DNA of 64,000 nt from the IMG/VR virus record IMGVR_UViG_3300028833_000058. One strand, written 5' to 3'. Position 1 is the stretch's first letter; each line of letters opens with the position of its first letter. The notes beneath the pieces are model-generated. The model ran no database searches. It was not told where the DNA came from and saw only the letters and a list, made by a program, of their open reading frames with translations. Of this stretch, positions 12,153 to 43,141 are shown piece by piece. The stretch is from a virus. Lineage: Duplodnaviria > Caudoviricetes. A program made the position numbers and the translations under genes.

Positions 12153-12249
12153 ATTATTATGTCTCCTTAATAAAAAAATTCACAGTTCCCTCTCTATAAC
12201 TGTGAATTATAACATATAAAAATTTAAAAGTAAAGTTAAATTTATAAAA

Positions 12250-14321: not shown

Positions 14322-15035
14322 TTCACTTCTCTGTCTTTCTCTAAATCTGGAAAATCTTTTAACAAACATCCAGATTCATCTCTGTTACATAACATTTCAG
14401 CATATATACCTTCTAAAGTATTTTCACCTACATGACCTATTTTAACATTATTCTTTTCAGCCCAGTTTATAAACCAATTAGAGGCATCTATGTAACCTTT
14501 TAAATATCCAGCAACAACTCTTGGTTCGTCTTCATGTCTACATGTAAAACATTGACACCCTTTTTTAATCATGATTCTTATCCTTTTCATAAATATAGTG
14601 ATAACCTAGCCACCAAATTGGTAAAGCCCAAGACAATATAGAAATGATTAAAGAAGTTGATAACAGACCAACTATATCAACATCTTCGTTATTTTTTCCA
14701 TTGACTAATGTGTTATTCAAACCTACACAACACATTAAAAAAGCAACACCCATTCCTATAAAGTATATTAGCTCTGCCATAGTCATTAATGTTACTCCAA
14801 CGCTTTGTCTATATCGTTTAAAAGTTTCTTTCTTTGGTTATAAGATTTTTCATCATATCTGTAATCGTCCATTTCTAACCAAACGCTTTGTCTAGCTTGT
14901 CTTAATAATTCTCTTAGCTTAATATTATAATCCATAAGATTTGTTAAATAACTAATTGTTGCAGTTGTACCATTATAAAGTTGTACAACTTTTTCTTCGT
15001 TTACTTTTACAGGTATAGTTACAATTTGACGTTCT

Positions 15036-15407
15036 TTACTCATGTTTAACACCTTCGTGAATATTACCAACTACTCTAACATTTCTTCTAATGAGTTTTT
15101 CTTGGTCATATTTATACATTCTGACTAAGAATCTAGCAGACTTTTTGTCAAAGAAAACAACACCTTGGTCACTCTTTGTGTTATCATCTTCCAATATGTC
15201 ACCTTCGTATATTGGTTTTTTGTTTTTATCTCTCAATCCAGTAGGCATTTCAAGTTCATAGTTAGAAGTATCTTTGTAAAGTTTATACATCATACCATAT
15301 GGATTTTCTTCTGTTCCTTTGTTCAAAACAGCTTGCATGTAGTATGTATGGTCGATGTATTTATGTTCACTTATACTCCAAAAACGAGGTAAACTTCTAT
15401 TTGTCAT
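15036..15407 (-). CDS. YopX family protein
   Basis: PRFW...TGLRDKNKKPIYEGDIL...VVGNIHE. Confidence 0.85.
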   Translation of the reverse strand: MTNRSLPRFWSISEHKYIDHTYYMQAVLNKGTEENPYGMMYKLYKDTSNYELEMPTGLRDKNKKPIYEGDILEDDNTKSDQGVVFFDKKSARFLVRMYKYDQEKLIRRNVRVVGNIHEGVKHE

Positions 15408-15624
15408 CTTTTACTATCTCCCATTCGTTGTTGTTTAAGATTTCATCGAAAGTCAACATAGTATCATCTTCATCCCAAAATGGTTTGTTGTGACCGTCAA
15501 TGAACTCTAAGTCAGTTTCCCAATGTTCGACTTCGTGTTTTCTTTTGTTATATCTATAAGTTTCAATCCCATCTGTAAATTTTTCACCCTTACGGATTTG
15601 CGGTAAAATTTCTTCAAATTTCAT
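15397..15624 (-). CDS. Tad2/DUF2829-like small protein (divergent)
   Basis: MKFEEILPQIRKGEK...DEILNNNEWEIV end motifs. Confidence 0.45.
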   Translation of the reverse strand: MKFEEILPQIRKGEKFTDGIETYRYNKRKHEVEHWETDLEFIDGHNKPFWDEDDTMLTFDEILNNNEWEIVKDDK

Positions 15625-16574
15625 TTTGTCTCTCCATAAGCATTTTCATGTTCCATCTGTTATGCGATTGTAAATCAGTTTCACACATTTTAACCATTTG
15701 TTCATTTGGATTCTCACCTTTAACTGGATTCTTACCACAATGAGAAACAAATTCGTCTTTTAAAACTTCTTTTATGTCAACTTTATCTGGATATATTTCG
15801 GTTGTATCAGCATCTAATTCATGTCTAACAAACGATACAGCACGTTGTATCCCTGTTAATTCCGATACATCTATTACGTTCTTATAATAAACTGTATTAT
15901 TTCTTGCGACTAAAATACTTGTGTTCATGCCATCTGTCTTGGTGTAAATTTGTACTATCATTTGTTTATGGCTCCCAAATAATTCGTTCATACATGCAGT
16001 TTCCATGTCATCTTTCATATTTAGCACACTCCTATTGTATTCGGATAAAATCTTGCACCAGCTTTGACGATTAAATCTTCATCAAATCGTTGGTCTTCAC
16101 CTTTACAAGCACCAATATAGTATTTTTCTTCATTGGTCATTGTATCTCTTATTTTTATAATACCAATACACTTTAAATCACCATTATCAGCGTAGTTATA
16201 CACAGTGATTGGATACCACCAAGAATCCACTATTACCATATTTGTATCTTCTACTTTTCGCATTTTACACCTTTTTCTTCTTTGATAACTCTTACTAATG
16301 TCTTAGCTAATTTCTTGTACATTGGTCTACCTAAGTCTTGTTCAACCTCAAGTCTACAAGTTGAAAAATTATTAAATAGCCACAAATAAAAAACAGAAGC
16401 TAATTTATCACCTTCAAAGAATTCATTGGCATAATATTCAATTCTTTTTGGCTCAAACTGACCTTCTGTCATTTTGTCATAGTCAAGTACATACTTCATT
16501 CTTACCCCAAACAATGTTACAAATACTGTTATAAAGCAATATTATGAAAAAGTAAAGTTAATTTTATAATTCAA

Positions 16575-17045
16575 TTAATGGTTCATAATTCCATCTTCGT
16601 AAAGTTTTTTAACTTCTTCAAGTCTTTTCAATTGTGATTCAGATAACTCCATGTTGAAAGTTAATCCTAATCTATTTAATTCTGATTCCAACTCTTTTAG
16701 ACATTTTTGGCCAAACCATGGAAGACGCATAAACTTTACTGGTGAATAACGAACAATATCCCCTAGTAACACATTTTCGGTTCCAAATTTCTTTTTAAGA
16801 CAATTAAAACATCTAACACTCAAATTAATTCTGTCTATGACACGTTCATAATATATTTCACGGTCAGCTAATTCCCATCTGTCGCTACTTAAATCATCAC
16901 CTGGAACATTTGTGTGACAACCGTTTGGATAATCGTCATTGACAATTTCAAAATGGCCTTCATATAGCCTAAAATTTTCACCTGGTACACCACGAGTTAT
17001 CATATACCCTTTTCTCATCCATTCTAATGCTTGCTCAAAATACAT
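16575..17045 (-). CDS. fusion: Tad2/DUF2829-like N-domain plus RNA polymerase alpha C-terminal domain
   Basis: MYFEQALEWMRKGYMITRG...DDLSSDRWEL, then INLSVRCFNCLKK...LGDIV...MRLPWFGQKCLKELESELNRLGLTFNM (alpha-CTD pattern LSVRSxNCLK...GDLV...NFGxKSLxEI...GL). Confidence 0.75.
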   Translation of the reverse strand: MYFEQALEWMRKGYMITRGVPGENFRLYEGHFEIVNDDYPNGCHTNVPGDDLSSDRWELADREIYYERVIDRINLSVRCFNCLKKKFGTENVLLGDIVRYSPVKFMRLPWFGQKCLKELESELNRLGLTFNMELSESQLKRLEEVKKLYEDGIMNH

Positions 17046-17680
17046 TTCAATTTATCTCCATTAAGAATTTAAGACTCTTTTAATTAGTTCATCTTAGCTT
17101 TTAACTGTGTTAGGATTGTGGCCTGTTTGTTCAACTCCTCAATATTTTGAAGTTTTTGCTCTATAAAAGCTCTATGTTCGTCAAGGTTATACATATCTTC
17201 TTCTATAACATTTTTCAACGTTTCAACCGCAATCTTCAATTGTTTTTCCAAGCGTTCTATCTTTTCTAAAGCCTGTATCAGCATATCTGTTCTACCGCTT
17301 GGTTCATCGTTACATTTATTAAATTCGTGTTGCGACTTGATTTCACAAGAGTTTAAGGCTCTCTTGATTAGTTCATCTTCTTTATTAATTGACATTTAAC
17401 AACTCCTTTCTTTTAGATAATAACTCTAAAATTTTTTCTTTAAATTCTTTTATTGTTTCACACCTACCAAACGAACCTTTACCAAATATTCTCATTATGC
17501 TCCAATGATAAGAATTACTGTCACAATATACATTTATCCACACGTGTTCCGTGATAAACCAATTAGCTTCAGTCCTATGACCATTCGTAAAGTGTTGGTC
17601 TGGATTCAAATTATGAATAAAATCACAAATCTCTTTTGTCTTTTTTCTGTATCTAAAAGGAATATATTTAGGATTGTAGC

Positions 17681-17845
17681 TCATTTAATAACTCCTGTAA
17701 GACTTAAAATCATTAAGTCAAAAAGTATCATCTCAAACACTCCACTATATAGATAATTTAAAAGTGTCCCCCAGTTTAAACTTTCTGCTTTTCCTGTCAG
17801 AAGTTTCCAACATAAGTAAAAAATTAAACAAGCGTTAATTATCAT
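17681..17845 (-). CDS. 54-aa hydrophobic protein not in the ORF track
   Basis: starts at ATG inside the 17-bp RBS repeat; stop overlaps ATG of 17385..17684. Confidence 0.55.
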   Translation of the reverse strand: MIINACLIFYLCWKLLTGKAESLNWGTLLNYLYSGVFEMILFDLMILSLTGVIK

Positions 17846-18050
17846 CTGTCTGCTCCTTATAACATTCGTTTGGAATTTCTTTATATTCTATACAATGGCA
17901 TCTTCTTATTGGCATCATAGTTTTTGTTGCTGCATTATAATACATCATTAAGAGGTGACAACTACTTTTTATACATACAGATTCTGTAGGTTTACTACAA
18001 TCCTTACAACCACAAAGCAATAGACACAATATAAGGATGTATTTACTCAT
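17835..18050 (-). CDS. small Cys-rich lipoprotein
   Basis: start at repeat-borne ATG gives MSKYILILCLLLCG-C lipobox. Confidence 0.6.
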   Translation of the reverse strand: MSKYILILCLLLCGCKDCSKPTESVCIKSSCHLLMMYYNAATKTMMPIRRCHCIEYKEIPNECYKEQTDDN

Positions 18051-18490
18051 CTGTCTGCTCCTTATTGAATAATTTTGGGAAAAGTCTTTTTGTTTGTTGT
18101 TCAATTACCTGAAGCCCTTTTTCTTTTACTTCATCAAATAGTTTCTTTTGTTCAGGGGTAAATTTGCCAACAAGATTTCTGTATGTACAATCATCTTCAT
18201 CATCATAGCCACCTATGTACCAATTCTGTTGTTCAATTTTCAACAATCTATGGTATGGACAATCACAATCTTCTTTATATTCTTCCCAACATTCATAATT
18301 ACCACCGCCCATTCTGGTGTAGATTATGAAATCATATTCTTCATAAGGACAATCTTCTGCTTTTAGAAAAACATCTCTAAATCTTGGGATTTCTTCATCA
18401 ATTCTAAACCCAAGAATACAGCTTAAAATTAAAGCTAAACTTCCGTTCATTCCATTTATCATATTATACAAGCTCATCTGTCTGCTCCTT
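17842..18490 (-). repeat. three exact 17-bp direct repeats AAGGAGCAGACAGATGA at gene junctions
   Basis: copies at 17842-17858, 18047-18063, 18474-18490; each supplies RBS and ATG. Confidence 0.9.
18043..18477 (-). CDS. phage hypothetical protein
   Basis: start at repeat-borne ATG; PRFRD...YTRMGGGN...DDEDDCTY motifs. Confidence 0.65.
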   Translation of the reverse strand: MSLYNMINGMNGSLALILSCILGFRIDEEIPRFRDVFLKAEDCPYEEYDFIIYTRMGGGNYECWEEYKEDCDCPYHRLLKIEQQNWYIGGYDDEDDCTYRNLVGKFTPEQKKLFDEVKEKGLQVIEQQTKRLFPKLFNKEQTDE

Positions 18491-18861
18491 TTCATAAAAT
18501 AAAACTGTGCTTTCCTTGTGTGGCGTGTTATCTTCAATAACTTGTCCGTTTTTATAAATAGCACATCTTCTTGGACAGAGGTGGTTTTCTCCGTATATCT
18601 CACAATCTCTGTCTATACTGTTCCAATAAATACAATGAGTCCTGCAAGTTATTCTCTCTTTAGTCATAAATATCCCTTTCGGCATTTGTTACCCAGTTGT
18701 CATAAGACGTTTTTGCCCGCTGTTCAAACGGTTTTAATCTCGTTATTTCATCTTTTAAATCATCTTGTTTTCTTATCTCTCGTCTTAAATCTTCTTTCAA
18801 GCGTTCGATTTCTCTATCCCGTTCATAAAGAGTATATATAAGAACGTCTTTGTCCATGTAA

Positions 18862-19083
18862 TCATACGCACTCATCTTCCACTACCTCCCAGTCTTCCGC
18901 AAACAATTCATTGTGTGTAATAGTATAATAGTATATACACCCTCTCCCATCTCTCCGACAAATTGCTTTATATTTTTCACCAAACCCATTACAGTATTCT
19001 GTTATGAATAAAGGAAAAACAGTCGTTGATGACTTAACCTTTTTACCCTCTCTCATAGCCTGTAAAGCCTGTTCAAATCTCAT
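18862..19083 (-). CDS. Tad2/DUF2829-like small protein
   Basis: MRFEQALQAMREGKKV...ELFAEDWEVVE matches the FxxALxxxxxGxxV...LAEDW ends of DUF2829; GGAG RBS before 19083. Confidence 0.65.
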   Translation of the reverse strand: MRFEQALQAMREGKKVKSSTTVFPLFITEYCNGFGEKYKAICRRDGRGCIYYYTITHNELFAEDWEVVEDECV

Positions 19084-19239
19084 CTTTCTCTCCATTGTTG
19101 TAGTACAAAAATCAATAAAAATTCTATTACCCACTCAAGCATGAAAGCACCGAAAGCATAATTCCAGTCTGCAATAAAACCTTTATATCCAAACATCTGA
19201 CAATATGCCTGTATTAACATCAATATAAGTGCTATCATC

Positions 19240-21660
19240 TTAACAAAGCTCCTCAATCTCTTCTTTATTCAATCTACGACAATTCGGATAACTGTCATAA
19301 TTATTAACGAAATACATTTGGGCTCCTAAAATACCCTTTTCTATGTGGTGTAATTTACCGTATATTTTTTGTTTTTCTTCCCAAAAGCAACAAATCTTAC
19401 CTATGTCTTGGTCTGTTATCTCATAAACTGGTCGTGTGATTTCTGTTTTATCGTGCCAGTTTATTTTTAGAAAATTAGCTATATAACAATCTGCTGATGT
19501 TCTTCCTCCTTTTGTTTTATACCACAATTTAATATCAGAATCACAGATACCTCTTTTTATTGAGTACACCTCATCAGGCAATATATCCCACAAATCTTGC
19601 ATATCATATTCATTTTCTCTATCGAATACACGTTGTGTCATTGTTTATTCTCCTCAAACCCAATAAATTTAAACTCTTTAATCGGTAGTTTTTGTATAAA
19701 TGAAGGGTGATAATCTACCAAAGAACCACCTTTTTTTAATTTCTTTTTGAGCAATCTCATACTCCACACTTTTTTTCTCTTTGAATTGCCATAGTTATCA
19801 AAGAAGTGGCAGAATAAAACCTTACCAATAATCTTTTCTATCTTTACATACCAAAAATCCATTACTCTTCTCCTAATGTTTCATCAATAACTTCTATTCT
19901 AGAATACGGACACAAACAAAAATCTGTTCCTCTTTCTTTTAATTCTTGGTTTAATCTATTCAAGAGATTATCTGCACACCAAGTCCCCTCATTAAAATGA
20001 TAGTCAATCTGTTCTTTATCCCAATGCTGTGGCACATCTACTTCTAAATAAAGAGCTGCTTTTATCTTAACTGGTTTTGTTATCATTACACAACCGTCTT
20101 TATGAAATTCTCCTACTTGACTATGACAATAAAAACAACGGTCTGGTTCTCCAGCAGGTCTTATTCCATAATCATCTGGCTGGACAATAGGATTTTGTCC
20201 GTCTTTCATTTTATAACTTTCTTTATCTTTTAATCTTAAAAAATCTACCATTCCAAATCTCATTTGTTTTCTCCTAATACCTGATTAATTTCTTTGTCTA
20301 ATCTTGTGTTATTCTTCAAATGGTCTATACTCCCTTTGTAATGCTTTCTCAAATATTCAATTTCATCTCTGCACTCTTTCAGAAGTTTTTTGAGATTGGT
20401 GTTTTCTTCTTCTAAGAATGCAACATAATCTCCTTGATTAAACCATTCCTCAAAACTAGGTACTTCGGCAAGGACTTTGACACAATCGTATCCATTTTCA
20501 TCACAATATTGTTTTCCGTTTGCTTCAAACTTCCAATAAGGAATTATTGCTTCAAATGTTCTAAATGTTGCCTCAAATGGTTCGCTATCATAGAATGTGA
20601 TATAGTATTTTTTACCATTTATAAGTTCGCCTTTTATCCATTTCTCGGTTAAGTTAGTCATCTTTTAACTCCTCTATGAATTTCTCTTTTTCATGAAAAG
20701 CACTTATCAACCAAAGTATTGATAATCCCAAACCTATCCCGAAAAATAACCAATCTTTTCCTATGTTATCTAACGCAAGGTTAAAACAAAAACCTGATAA
20801 AAAAGCATAATATATCATTTTCCACCTACCTTTCTTAAAGTAATTTAATTTTATCTACGTTTGTTAAAATATACATTTCTATAAACCATTCTATTTTCTT
20901 CTGACATGTTTACTTTATCAAAGACTTTCTCTAGCTCTTGTTCAGTTAGTTTAATAACTTGTTTAGTGATTTCAATAGGTCTATCAGGATGTAAAGCACA
21001 CTCTTTAAGTGTTTCTATTAGACATTTATCTCGTTCAGCTTTAACCAATTCAAACATAAAACTATTGTTCTTAGAAACTCCTGTTGTCCATTCATGTTTT
21101 AATTTTCTTGGTTCTTGAGATTCAAAATTTACAATTTCTATTTCTAAATTCTCATCATGATTAAAATTTTCACTCATTATCCAAACTCCTCATTATCTCT
21201 AACATATTTTCAAAAGGCACATTCATTTCTATTAGTGTAGGGTACTTATCTACATCATTGTAATCACAGAATATAGCGTTACATTTTTTATAGAAGGTCA
21301 AAGGTATATCTTCGTGAGCTAAAAATTCATCATACTTGAATGTAAAGTAATACCATTCGTGTCCTTCACTCATGATATCCACTTGTTGTTTAGTAGGTGT
21401 AATCAAAACCCAACCGTATTTAAAAGCTTCTTTAACTAATTCTTCCCAAGTCATCAGTATAACTCCTTTAATCTTTTCGCAAATTCCTTTAGTGTTTTTG
21501 GTTTATGACAACATTCTTTTGGAGAATAAACTGTTATATGACCTGAACCCTTTGGAGTTTTTATATTTTCGTATTTTATATTTCTTTCGTGATGCAATAA
21601 ACACCCAATTGCACCACCATCAGCAGGACATCCGTAACAATTTTTGACTTTTCTCACCAT
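19240..21660 (-). CDS. run of small hypothetical genes incl. CxxC/HxxxC zinc-finger protein 19862..20263
   Basis: coupled ORFs with GGAG/GAGG RBS. Confidence 0.6.
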
Positions 21661-28021: not shown

Positions 28022-28454
28022 TTGTATTTACAATTATGAACAGGCACCAGTTTCCTTATATAAATGAGCTCTTATTAAAGTAAAACCAGCGATGTCTCTA
28101 CAATCTTCTTCAGATTTACCTTGACAAGAAAAAGTATGAGGTACACCTTCGTGCTTTACCATAACACTAAACTCGTATTCACCAGTATCTTTATTGAAAA
28201 TTACTTTATTTGCAAGTAATTTTTCATTCTGTATCTTTCTTTTAGCCATTTTCTTTTCAAATGCAAGATTATTTTCTTCAACCGCTCTTTGAAACTCCAA
28301 GGCATCTTGTGCCTTTTCTTCTCTGTATTCCTTATACTCATTTATAAGACTTTTAATCAACTTAAACATTTTAACTCTCCTTTCGATGATTTATGCTTCA
28401 TTGTAACATTAAAACCAAGAAAAGTAAAGTCAAATTTTACAATTAATTTGTATA

Positions 28455-43037: not shown

Positions 43038-43141
43038 GCGATTCTGATGTATATATTAATATATCTTTAAAGTAAAGACATTTTTAAAAATTAATTGTAA
43101 AAAAGTACTTGACAATGATTATTTATATCTGTATAACTAAG

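What the first reader, a model, noticed from the sequence alone, without database searches (positions are those of the whole stretch)
16575..17045. Tad2/DUF2829-like domain fused to an RNA polymerase alpha-CTD
Seen: residues 1-60 have DUF2829-type ends; residues ~70-135 are a clear alpha-CTD retaining the LSVR Arg, NCL and FGxK elements that contact UP-element DNA. Established: Tad2 is an oligomeric sponge for gcADPR and cyclic dinucleotides; alpha-CTD binds AT-rich UP elements and activators. Inference: either a transcription factor or activator decoy responsive to immune signalling nucleotides, or a multimerised alpha-CTD that could read the AATTAATTGTAA element upstream of the early promoters.
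Basis: partly seen in the sequence, partly recalled or inferred. Interest (0 to 1): 0.8.

Follow-up and report, generated by a model that had tools for sequence, protein, structure and literature searches.

The report
Phage Tad2-fold / RNA polymerase alpha-CTD fusion
A giant T4-like phage from the sheep gut encodes a small protein that joins a stripped-down copy of a phage "immune-signal sponge" fold to the DNA-binding tail domain of bacterial RNA polymerase; it most likely assembles into a multi-armed binder of AT-rich promoter-upstream DNA, a design not described before but untested.

Summary
Window 16575-17045 (minus strand) is a real 156-aa gene with a GGAGA ribosome-binding site. It is under purifying selection.

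- **C-terminal domain.** Residues about 66-135 are a bona fide RNA polymerase alpha-CTD by Pfam score and by fold. The DNA-contact residues R265, N268, C269, G296 and K298 are kept.
- **N-terminal domain.** Residues 1-61 are a minimal Tad2/DUF2829 fold. The structure matches are clear, and it is homologous to a Pfam-positive Tad2-like paralogue 1.8 kb away.
- **Ligand sites.** The N-domain lacks both ligand-stacking tryptophans, and the Asn beside the first, of the gcADPR pocket. It also lacks the insertion that binds cyclic dinucleotides in other Tad2 proteins.
- **Oligomer.** A four-copy model supports self-assembly.
- **Origin.** A related phage has a 67-aa stand-alone version in the same gene slot, so the alpha-CTD was either gained here or lost there.

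My best reading (about 45%) is a Tad2-fold oligomer core carrying several alpha-CTD arms. These would bind AT-rich promoter-upstream DNA and compete with, or imitate, the host polymerase's own alpha-CTD. A sponge or ligand-gated role is less likely.

Only four sequence clusters with this architecture were found. This scan has noted other phage alpha-CTD fusions on other DNA, but not this one.

The parts
16575..17045 (-). Whole gene, 156 codons plus the TAA stop (protein P0001)
   Evidence: ORF list and translation. dN/dS is 0.20 against the 84%-identical homologue P0002.
17055..17059 (-). Ribosome-binding site GGAGA, 9 nt upstream of the ATG
   Evidence: Read directly from the sequence.
16863..17045 (-). 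Residues 1-61: minimal Tad2/DUF2829-fold domain (helix 3-11, then a small antiparallel sheet). It carries a family-specific invariant motif P40-x-G42-C43-H44 ... G49-D50-D51 ... W57-E58.
   Evidence: hhalign 97.5% to the window's PF11195 protein. Foldseek TM by query 0.72-0.78 to Tad2 structures 8smf, 8v3e, 9eib and 8kbi. VIA Z 9.5 and 9.4, rmsd 1.8-2.0 A over 60-61 residues, with the next unrelated match at 5.8. Invariant columns. dN/dS 0.06-0.09.
16842..16862 (-). Residues 62-68: short helical linker. It starts where the stand-alone 67-aa orthologues end.
   Evidence: Alignment A2. Stand-alone orthologues P0154-P0156. Model secondary structure.
16656..16841 (-). Residues 69-130: RNA polymerase alpha-CTD domain. 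R77, N80, C81, G111 and K113 correspond to E. coli R265, N268, C269, G296 and K298. There is a 3-residue insertion after helix 1.
   Evidence: Pfam 39.8 bits against a cut-off of 23.8. PDB sequence matches. Foldseek 1lb2_B TM by target 0.92, rmsd 1.2 A. dN/dS 0.34-0.37.
16578..16655 (-). Residues 131-156: C-terminal amphipathic helix (136-150) that extends the alpha-CTD. It aligns with the C-terminal extensions of the alpha subunits in 7ye1 and 2max.
   Evidence: HMMER alignments to 7ye1_A and 2max_A run to residues 148-152. Model helix 136-150. The tail is 88% identical to P0003 although the core is only 39% identical.

Best explanation
The gene makes a two-domain phage protein. The N-terminal 61 residues form a stripped-down Tad2 fold that self-associates, probably as the Tad2-type dimer of dimers. 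Each subunit carries, on a short linker, a complete alpha-CTD with its DNA-binding face intact.

The resulting particle would have two to four alpha-CTD arms and would bind AT-rich minor-groove DNA of the kind found upstream of promoters (UP-element-like DNA). It has no alpha N-terminal domain, so it cannot enter RNA polymerase. It would therefore occupy such DNA in place of, or beside, the host polymerase's own alpha-CTDs and change which promoters are used during infection. Possible targets are host UP-dependent promoters and the phage's own box-carrying promoters.

Shown here: both folds, the retained DNA-contact residues, purifying selection, and the modular gain or loss of the alpha-CTD. 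Supported by a model only: oligomerisation. Inferred: DNA binding, the target sites and the effect on transcription.
For: 1. The alpha-CTD passes Pfam's cut-off. It superposes on E. coli alpha-CTD at rmsd 1.2 A.

2. The DNA-binding '265 determinant' is kept. R77, N80, C81, G111 and K113 match R265, N268, C269, G296 and K298 (alignment; residue roles from established alpha-CTD literature and structures 1lb2 and 3n4m, my knowledge). The Arg, Asn and Lys are present in all four homologues, although the two alpha-CTD core types are only 39-47% identical.

3. The four-copy model of the N-domain scored 0.51 against a best of 0.02 in 3 controls.
- In the tool's calibration this mark was reached by 20 of 30 proteins solved as pairs of one chain and by 1 of 23 proteins solved as single chains.
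- The runs agree in at least 95% of contacts, and the partner's pLDDT is at least 80.
- Caveats: Tad2 tetramers are solved, so the pass may reflect likeness to them. The job used my own alignment and four copies, unlike the calibration.
- The interface uses helix 1 (residues 2-11) and residues 42-53. Published Tad2 tetramers also interlock along helix alpha-1 (10.1101/2023.05.01.538930).

4. The closest alpha-CTD relatives in metagenomes are fused to other DNA-directed modules: sigma region 4, HTH_17, Arm-DNA-bind_3, T5orf172 and tandem alpha-CTD repeats. This fits alpha-CTD as a portable DNA-binding module of mobile elements.

5. As a lead only, the ESM Atlas lists a phage cluster in which a look-alike of this N-domain (TM 0.76 over residues 1-62) sits in proteins where 60% carry an HTH_23 DNA-binding domain.

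6. The canonical sponge pocket residues are missing. This favours a scaffold role for the N-domain.

7. A recurrent phage promoter type carries a conserved 12-mer at about -55 to -44, where alpha-CTD sits on UP elements. There are 7 exact copies, and 10 with at most 1 mismatch against 3.45 expected.

8. dN/dS is below 1 in every part of the gene.
Against: - No binding data exist for DNA, RNA polymerase or any ligand.
- The residues that in E. coli contact sigma region 4 are changed (D259 to R71, E261 to N73). Co-operation with sigma at a promoter is therefore not supported.
- G296 is Tyr in homologue P0004.
- The alpha-CTD is the least constrained part of the gene (dN/dS 0.34-0.37) and exists in two divergent core types. 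A fixed DNA target would not obviously predict this.
- The N-domain is far more constrained (0.06-0.09) and has an invariant P-x-G-C-H / G-D-D motif at the predicted subunit interface. That suggests more than passive scaffolding.
- The host, and hence the host's alpha-CTD and UP elements, are unknown.
Confidence: 0.45

Rival explanations
1. Sponge or ligand-gated regulator. The Tad2-fold core still binds a small molecule at its subunit interfaces, either a host immune signal other than gcADPR or a metal. The alpha-CTD then either tethers the sponge to DNA or RNA polymerase, or has its DNA binding switched by the ligand.
For: - The fold is Tad2, and an oligomer model is supported.
- The Tad2 family is functionally plastic. 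Members bind gcADPR, His-ADPR, N7-cADPR, cyclic dinucleotides and cUMP/cCMP, some in second pockets (10.1101/2025.08.24.671296; PMC10680739).
- The invariant residues G42, C43, H44, G49 and D50 lie in the predicted interface, and H44 and D51 align with Tad2 pocket residues H71 and D79.
- The N-domain is under very strong purifying selection.
- Stand-alone 66-67-aa orthologues exist and could be sponges in their own right.
- The phage carries two further Tad2-like genes within 4 kb.
Against: - In the alignment to SPO1 Tad2, W25 is deleted and N26, W73, S76 and T78 are all replaced. Mutating the equivalent residues abolished gcADPR binding in HgmTad2 (PMC10680739).
- The insertion that builds the cyclic-dinucleotide pocket is absent.
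- In the four-copy model the pocket-equivalent residues 46-47 of two subunits touch each other, which leaves little room for a ligand.
- No known sponge carries a DNA-binding domain.
Confidence: 0.22
2. Protein decoy. The free alpha-CTD arms titrate proteins that normally dock on the host alpha-CTD, rather than binding DNA. Candidates are class I activators, Spx-like regulators, and host or phage enzymes that modify alpha-CTD.
For: - Alpha-CTD is a known hub for activators and a known phage target. T4 Alt and ModA ADP-ribosylate R265 (PMC2988021).
- The fold and many surface positions are kept.
- Multivalency would raise avidity.
- The divergence of the core into two types, with mosaic exchange, resembles an arms-race surface.
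Against: - The best identity to any bacterial alpha-CTD in 1.8 billion representatives is only about 40-49%. It is therefore not a close mimic of any sampled host domain.
- The 261 determinant is not kept.
- The residues that stay fixed across homologues are the DNA-contact ones.
Confidence: 0.15
3. General DNA-coating or nucleoid protein. A multivalent AT-rich DNA binder that compacts or shields the 31% GC phage genome, for example against host nucleases or silencing, without a specific role at promoters.
For: - The phage DNA is about 31% GC throughout, so an AT-tract reader would bind it widely.
- Alpha-CTD modules occur in many non-polymerase DNA proteins.
Against: - The gene sits among small genes of mostly unknown function in a mosaic region, not with replication or packaging genes.
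- It is dispensable, since relatives carry only the 67-aa form.
Confidence: 0.1
4. Non-functional or accidental fusion, such as an assembly or annotation artefact or a decaying gene.
For: The architecture is rare: four protein clusters in 5.8 billion.
Against: - The same open frame is found in independent samples and contigs. Contigs of the two runs of sample S1, flagged as the possible source of this DNA, hold 96-99% of the stretch's sampled words.
- dN/dS is 0.20-0.27 overall.
- Both domains give confident models.
- An RBS is present.
Confidence: 0.03

Closest known systems
C-terminal domain of the bacterial RNA polymerase alpha subunit (Pfam PF03118; e.g. E. coli alpha-CTD on UP/CAP DNA in PDB 1lb2, 3n4m and 3n97)
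   Same: - Same fold (TM 0.92 by target, rmsd 1.2 A).
- Same double helix-hairpin-helix DNA-contact residues R265, N268, C269, G296 and K298.
- A C-terminal helix extension like those aligned in 7ye1 and 2max.
   Different: - It is not attached to an alpha N-terminal domain, so it cannot be a polymerase subunit.
- The sigma-contact residues D259 and E261 are replaced.
- S299 is Cys, and there is a 3-residue insertion after helix 1.
- It is phage-encoded and only about 30-49% identical to bacterial domains.
Tad2 (Thoeris anti-defence 2; DUF2829, Pfam PF11195): SPO1 gp34.65, ModTad2, HgmTad2/AcrIIA7
   Same: - N-terminal helix followed by a small antiparallel sheet, with the 'MxFxxAL..G' start and 'DW[ED][ILV]' end.
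- Structure match Z 9.5, rmsd 1.8 A over 60 residues.
- Predicted self-assembly through helix 1.
- Phage-borne.
   Different: - It is 61 residues instead of 89-104, because the beta2-beta3 insertion is almost gone.
- The gcADPR-stacking Trp residues and the Asn beside the first are absent.
- It has its own invariant P-x-G-C-H motif.
- It is below Pfam's cut-off on its own.
- It is fused to a DNA-binding domain.
Other phage or mobile-element alpha-CTD fusions. These include uncharacterised UniProt phage proteins auto-named 'RNA polymerase, alpha subunit, C-terminal' of 128-204 aa. They also include metagenomic fusions to sigma region 4, HTH_17, Arm-DNA-bind_3 and T5orf172, and earlier unpublished notes of this scan on sigma-4, Csx20-like and zinc-ribbon fusions.
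   Same: A stand-alone alpha-CTD module used outside RNA polymerase, attached to a small partner domain, and mostly in phages or mobile elements.
   Different: The partner here is a Tad2-fold oligomerisation domain. No other example of this pairing was found. None of these proteins has been studied experimentally, as far as my paper searches show.
T4 strategies against the host alpha-CTD: Alt and ModA ADP-ribosylation of R265 (PMC2988021)
   Same: A T4-like phage acting on the alpha-CTD / UP-element node of host transcription. This is functional analogy only.
   Different: T4 chemically inactivates the host domain. This phage would supply extra copies of the domain, and no enzyme is involved. 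The analogy is inferred, not tested.

Membership tests
RNA polymerase alpha-CTD domain (PF03118) | Sequence match above Pfam's gathering score | tested here: met
   39.8 bits against a cut-off of 23.8, E 3.8e-10, residues 65-124. All four homologues carry the precomputed PF03118 hit.
RNA polymerase alpha-CTD domain (PF03118) | Compact four-helix double helix-hairpin-helix fold | tested here: met
   Foldseek 1lb2_B TM by target 0.92, rmsd 1.2 A over 74 columns. Twenty-six PDB matches at E <= 0.001, and all those listed at that level are alpha subunits.
RNA polymerase alpha-CTD domain (PF03118) | DNA-binding '265 determinant' (R265, N268, C269, G296, K298, S299) | tested here: met
   R77, N80, C81, G111 and K113 are identical, and S299 is C114 (alignments). 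R, N and K are kept in all four homologues, and G in three.
RNA polymerase alpha-CTD domain (PF03118) | '261 determinant' that contacts sigma region 4 (D259, E261) | tested here: not met
   The aligned residues are R71 and N73 (alignment, counted from R77 = R265).
RNA polymerase alpha subunit (RpoA) as a polymerase component | N-terminal dimerisation and assembly domain (PF01193 / PF01000) on the same chain | tested here: not met
   No such Pfam hit. NCBIfam rpoA models match only their last ~70-85 positions, at 29-51 bits against cut-offs of 228-523.
Tad2 / DUF2829 (PF11195) | Sequence match above Pfam's gathering score | tested here: not met
   12.4 bits against a cut-off of 25, first 19 residues only. 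Indirect links are met: relative P0054 scores 25.2 bits over the full model, and hhalign to the window's PF11195-positive paralogue gives 97.5%, E 6.6e-12.
Tad2 / DUF2829 (PF11195) | Tad2 fold (alpha-1 plus antiparallel sheet) | tested here: met
   Model pLDDT 90.7. All listed Foldseek rows down to rank 14 are Tad2 chains, TM by query 0.72-0.78. VIA Z 9.5 (9eib_A) and 9.4 (8kbi_A), against 5.8 for the next match.
Tad2 / DUF2829 (PF11195) | Homo-oligomer (tetramer as a dimer of dimers) | tested here: inconclusive
   The four-copy model scored 0.51 against a best control of 0.02 and passes the tool's mark. This is a model, possibly helped by solved Tad2 tetramers, and the stoichiometry was not established.
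Tad2 / DUF2829 (PF11195) | gcADPR pocket residues (SPO1 W25, N26, W73, S76, T78, D79) | tested here: not met
   hhalign to SPO1 Tad2 (E 2.8e-4): W25 falls in a gap, N26 to P21, W73 to N46, S76 to G49, T78 to D50. Only D79 = D51 and H71 = H44 are kept. Residue roles are from 10.1101/2023.05.01.538930 and PMC10680739.
Tad2 / DUF2829 (PF11195) | Long beta2-beta5 insertion (35-41 residues) forming the cyclic-dinucleotide pocket (HgmTad2 / SptTad2 subgroup) | tested here: not met
   The whole domain is 61 residues. The hhalign alignment to SPO1 Tad2 places 22 residues of gaps in the query in this region. The requirement is from PMC10680739.
Tad2 / DUF2829 (PF11195) | Sequesters an immune signal and inhibits Thoeris, CBASS or Pycsar | not testable with these tools
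   This needs binding and infection assays.

The most novel reading that the evidence does not exclude
The Tad2-fold core is a sensor. Its remodelled interfacial site (the invariant Cys43-His44, His31, Asp50-Asp51) would bind a host immune signal, another small molecule or a metal. Binding would change how the four alpha-CTD arms engage promoter-upstream DNA. The phage would thereby couple its transcription programme directly to the host's alarm state. A sponge fold would have been converted into a ligand-gated transcription switch built from a piece of RNA polymerase.
Probability: 0.1. Interest if true: 0.85.

Novelty: new variant of a known kind. Interest (0 to 1): 0.58.

Why it matters
Phages are known to disable the host alpha-CTD chemically or by blocking it. 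A phage that makes its own free, probably multimeric, alpha-CTD would be a different way to interfere with promoter-upstream recognition, and no such protein has been characterised.

The protein also shows that the Tad2 fold, so far known only as an immune-signal sponge, can be cut down to a 61-residue core without the canonical pocket and reused as the body of a DNA-binding protein. This bears on how far a 'DUF2829 = anti-Thoeris' annotation can be trusted.

The stand-alone and fused forms sit in the same gene slot of related phages. That gives a natural pair for testing what the added domain does.

Tried and rejected
- **PHROGs:** no family at E <= 0.1.
- **INPHARED phages:** no DNA match and no match to the N-domain.
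- **tblastn hit MT839982.1:** it seemed to cover both domains but is a bacterial rpoA followed by rplQ, mislabelled as phage. It is not a homologue of the fusion.
- **Whole-genome searches:** impossible, because no genome is held for this window.
- **IMG/VR scan with the N-domain profile:** no confirmed relative.
- **PDB by sequence with the N-domain profile:** Tad2 chains only at E 0.5-1.4 and on helix 1 only. The fold had to be tested by structure.
- **Generic sigma-70 promoter scan of 14-29 kb:** no enrichment, 73 found against 76 expected. No promoter can be assigned to the gene this way.
- **Expression:** exact RNA-library contigs from a sheep-gut metatranscriptome (X3) lie on neighbouring genes at 15.2-16.4, 17.3-17.5 and 18.4-18.5 kb. 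None lies on 16510-17113. This says nothing either way about expression of the gene.
- **ESM Atlas by shape with the full model:** only alpha-CTD clusters and no two-domain cluster.
- **Host inference from the alpha-CTD:** rejected as unreliable, because the best PDB scores are driven by the C-terminal tail.
- **Recent capture of a host rpoA fragment:** rejected, because no bacterial alpha-CTD exceeds about 49% identity.

Full report
**What is there.**
Window 16575..17045 on the minus strand is a 156-codon ORF, with GGAGA 9 nt before the ATG. It lies in a dense run of small, same-strand genes. The window encodes a Gp23-type major capsid protein, a ClpB-like ATPase, an M16 peptidase and VWA/DUF2201 proteins. 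It has about 31% GC throughout, and the longest contig on record that carries this protein is 246 kb. The DNA has no match among 50,697 deposited phage records. Nearly all of it is held by two runs from a single sheep-gut metagenome sample, which may be its source. I read this as a T4-like jumbo phage of the sheep gut; its host is unknown.

**The C-terminal half is a true alpha-CTD.**
- Pfam PF03118 matches residues 65-124 at 39.8 bits, against a cut-off of 23.8.
- NCBIfam rpoA models match only their last ~70-85 positions.
- Forty-four PDB alpha subunits match by sequence.
- The AlphaFold2 model of the whole protein has pLDDT 89.8 and pTM 0.73.
- Its C-terminal domain superposes on E. coli alpha-CTD bound to CAP and DNA (1lb2_B) with TM 0.92 by target and rmsd 1.2 A.

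I counted residues from the HMMER alignments. R77, N80, C81, G111 and K113 correspond to E. coli R265, N268, C269, G296 and K298, the residues that contact UP-element DNA. S299 is Cys114. D259 and E261, which contact sigma region 4 in E. coli, are Arg71 and Asn73. A helix at 136-150 extends the domain and aligns with the C-terminal extensions of the alpha subunits in 7ye1 and 2max. There is no alpha N-terminal domain, so the protein cannot be a polymerase subunit.

**The N-terminal half is a minimal Tad2 fold.**
The direct Pfam hit to Tad2-like PF11195 is insignificant (12.4 bits), but several independent links hold.
- The exhaustive representative search found stand-alone 66-97-aa relatives of residues 1-63 at E 4e-17 to 1e-7. 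One of them, P0054, reaches the PF11195 cut-off over the full model.
- A profile of the family (A3) matches the window's own PF11195-positive protein at 18862..19134 (29.6 bits). The hhalign probability is 97.5% with E 6.6e-12.
- A model of residues 1-64 (pLDDT 90.7) has only Tad2 chains among its listed Foldseek matches down to rank 14. These are SPO1 Tad2, ModTad2, and further down SptTad2 and HgmTad2/AcrIIA7, with TM by query 0.72-0.78.
- An all-against-all structural search gives Z 9.5 and 9.4 at rmsd 1.8-2.0 A over 60-61 residues. The next match scores 5.8.

**The canonical ligand sites are gone.**
I took SPO1 Tad2 from its genome record and aligned it to the family profile.
- The two tryptophans that sandwich gcADPR and the Asn beside the first (W25, N26, W73) have no counterpart. 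They correspond to a gap, Pro21 and Asn46.
- S76 and T78 become Gly and Asp. Only H71 and D79 are kept, as H44 and D51.
- These residues are the published contacts (10.1101/2023.05.01.538930). Mutating the equivalent residues abolished gcADPR binding in HgmTad2 (PMC10680739).
- The cyclic-dinucleotide pocket of HgmTad2 and SptTad2 is built from a 35-41-residue insertion (PMC10680739). That insertion is essentially absent from this 61-residue domain.
- In its place the family has its own invariant motif: P40, G42, C43, H44, G49, W57 and E58, plus the near-invariant H31, D50 and D51.

Tad2 proteins are known to be plastic in what they bind (10.1101/2025.08.24.671296). A different ligand therefore cannot be excluded.

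**Self-assembly.**
A four-copy model of the N-domain scored 0.51, against a best of 0.02 in three controls.
- In the tool's calibration this mark was reached by 20 of 30 proteins solved as pairs of one chain and by 1 of 23 proteins solved as single chains.
- The runs agree in at least 95% of contacts, and the partner's pLDDT is at least 80.
- The interface uses helix 1 (residues 2-11, with symmetric 4:4 and 7:7 contacts) and residues 42-53. Published Tad2 tetramers also interlock along helix alpha-1.
- Two cautions apply. Tad2 tetramers are in the PDB, so the pass may reflect likeness to them. The job also differed from the calibration, because it used my own alignment and four copies.

**Evolution.**
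- Only four protein clusters with this architecture exist among 5.8 billion (P0001-P0004).
- The related contig L004 shares the flanking 130-, 136-, 70- and 85-aa gene order of L001 and L009. In the same slot it carries a 67-aa stand-alone form that is 81% identical to the N-domain. The alpha-CTD was therefore gained in one lineage or lost in another.
- The surrounding region is mosaic between relatives.
- Within the gene, the alpha-CTD core occurs in two types that are 39-47% identical, and the tail occurs in two types. Core and tail types do not co-segregate, which indicates recombination inside the gene.
- dN/dS is 0.06-0.09 for the N-domain, 0.34-0.37 for the alpha-CTD and 0.26-0.51 for the tail. 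The gene is functional, and the N-domain is its most constrained part.
- No bacterial alpha-CTD exceeds about 49% identity, so this is not a recent capture from a host.

**What alpha-CTD does outside polymerase.**
Among the nearest relatives of this alpha-CTD are metagenomic proteins that join it to other modules. These are sigma region 4, an HTH_17 excisionase-type domain, an integrase Arm DNA-binding domain, a T5orf172 nuclease-type domain, and further alpha-CTD copies. BFVD holds several uncharacterised phage proteins of 128-204 aa that are auto-named 'RNA polymerase, alpha subunit, C-terminal'. Earlier unchecked notes of this scan describe phage fusions of alpha-CTD to sigma-4, to a Csx20-like ring nuclease and to a zinc ribbon. 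My paper searches found no study of any of these. The pattern fits alpha-CTD as a portable DNA-binding module of mobile elements. As a lead only, the ESM Atlas lists a phage cluster where a look-alike of this N-domain is joined to an HTH_23 domain.

**The promoter box.**
- AATTAATTGTAA occurs 7 times exactly, and 10 times with at most 1 mismatch against 3.45 expected. Nine of the ten copies lie on the minus (gene-sense) strand.
- Eight of the ten sites share the layout box - N8/9 - TTTACT-like -35 hexamer - about 16-17 nt - TAnAAT.
- This puts the box at about -55 to -44, the position of the distal UP subsite where alpha-CTD binds in E. coli (my knowledge).
- The nearest upstream copy to this gene is 11.4 kb away, at 28437.

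**Verdict.**
- My best reading, at about 45%, is an oligomeric Tad2-fold core displaying several alpha-CTD arms. These would bind AT-rich promoter-upstream DNA and so compete with or imitate the polymerase's own alpha-CTD.
- The rivals are a sponge or ligand-gated regulator with a remodelled site (22%), a decoy for alpha-CTD-binding proteins (15%), a general DNA-coating protein (10%) and an artefact (3%).
- I class it as a new variant of known kinds: two known domains in an undescribed pairing, rare, and untested.

Noticed in passing
window 18862-19134 (-) and 15397-15624 (-): There are two more Tad2-like genes within 4 kb of the fusion. The first passes Pfam PF11195 (29.6 bits). The second matches the family profile only over its first 27 residues (hhalign 80.8%). 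Judged from the alignment, neither has the 'GWN' pocket motif.
   Followed up: partly
window 9642, 28437, 46401, 48108, 50649, 51743, 53937, 54787 (all -) and 43089 (+): A recurrent promoter cassette: AATTAATTGTAA, 8-9 nt, a -35 hexamer (TTTACT-like on the minus-strand copies, TTGACA at 43089), about 16-17 nt, then a TAnAAT-like -10. On the minus-strand copies TGACTTTAC resembles a T4 MotA-box-like element (TGCTTtA). A terminator-like hairpin directly precedes the copy at 28437.
   Followed up: partly
window 16528-16559 (-): A promoter-like element, AACTTTACTTTTT-N13-TATAAC, begins 16 nt after the fusion gene's stop codon, ahead of the next gene (16514). Its upstream AT-rich part (CATTAATTGAAT) overlaps the last codons and the stop of the fusion gene. 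A similar element lies at 12237 (-).
   Followed up: no
window 16575-17045 compared with P0002-P0004: Mosaic structure inside the gene. There are two alpha-CTD core types and two C-terminal tail types in all combinations seen, which indicates recombination between variants.
   Followed up: partly
protein P0046: The same mini-Tad2 domain (42% identical over residues 2-65) is fused in another metagenomic protein to an unrelated 100-residue C-terminal region with no Pfam or NCBIfam match. The small domain therefore accepts different C-terminal partners.
   Followed up: partly
L008 (MT839982.1, 1-1235): This GenBank record, labelled 'Bacteriophage sp.' from human faeces, carries the 3' part of a bacterial rpoA followed by ribosomal protein L17. 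It is probably a bacterial fragment.
   Followed up: yes
window 15036-15407 (-): A YopX-family protein (PF09643, E 1.5e-10) lies among the small genes beside the Tad2-like genes.
   Followed up: no
window 15000-19500, runs X4 and X5: Contigs from other gut metagenomes follow this stretch for a few hundred bases and then diverge or skip blocks of about 0.8-1 kb (for example 17117 to 18046). The stretch therefore behaves as a set of exchangeable single-gene cassettes.
   Followed up: no
proteins P0134, P0099, P0108, P0009: Metagenomic proteins join an alpha-CTD to T5orf172, to an integrase Arm DNA-binding domain, to an HTH_17 domain, or to sigma region 4 plus further alpha-CTD repeats. This is a wider, unstudied use of alpha-CTD as a mobile DNA-binding module.
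   Followed up: partly
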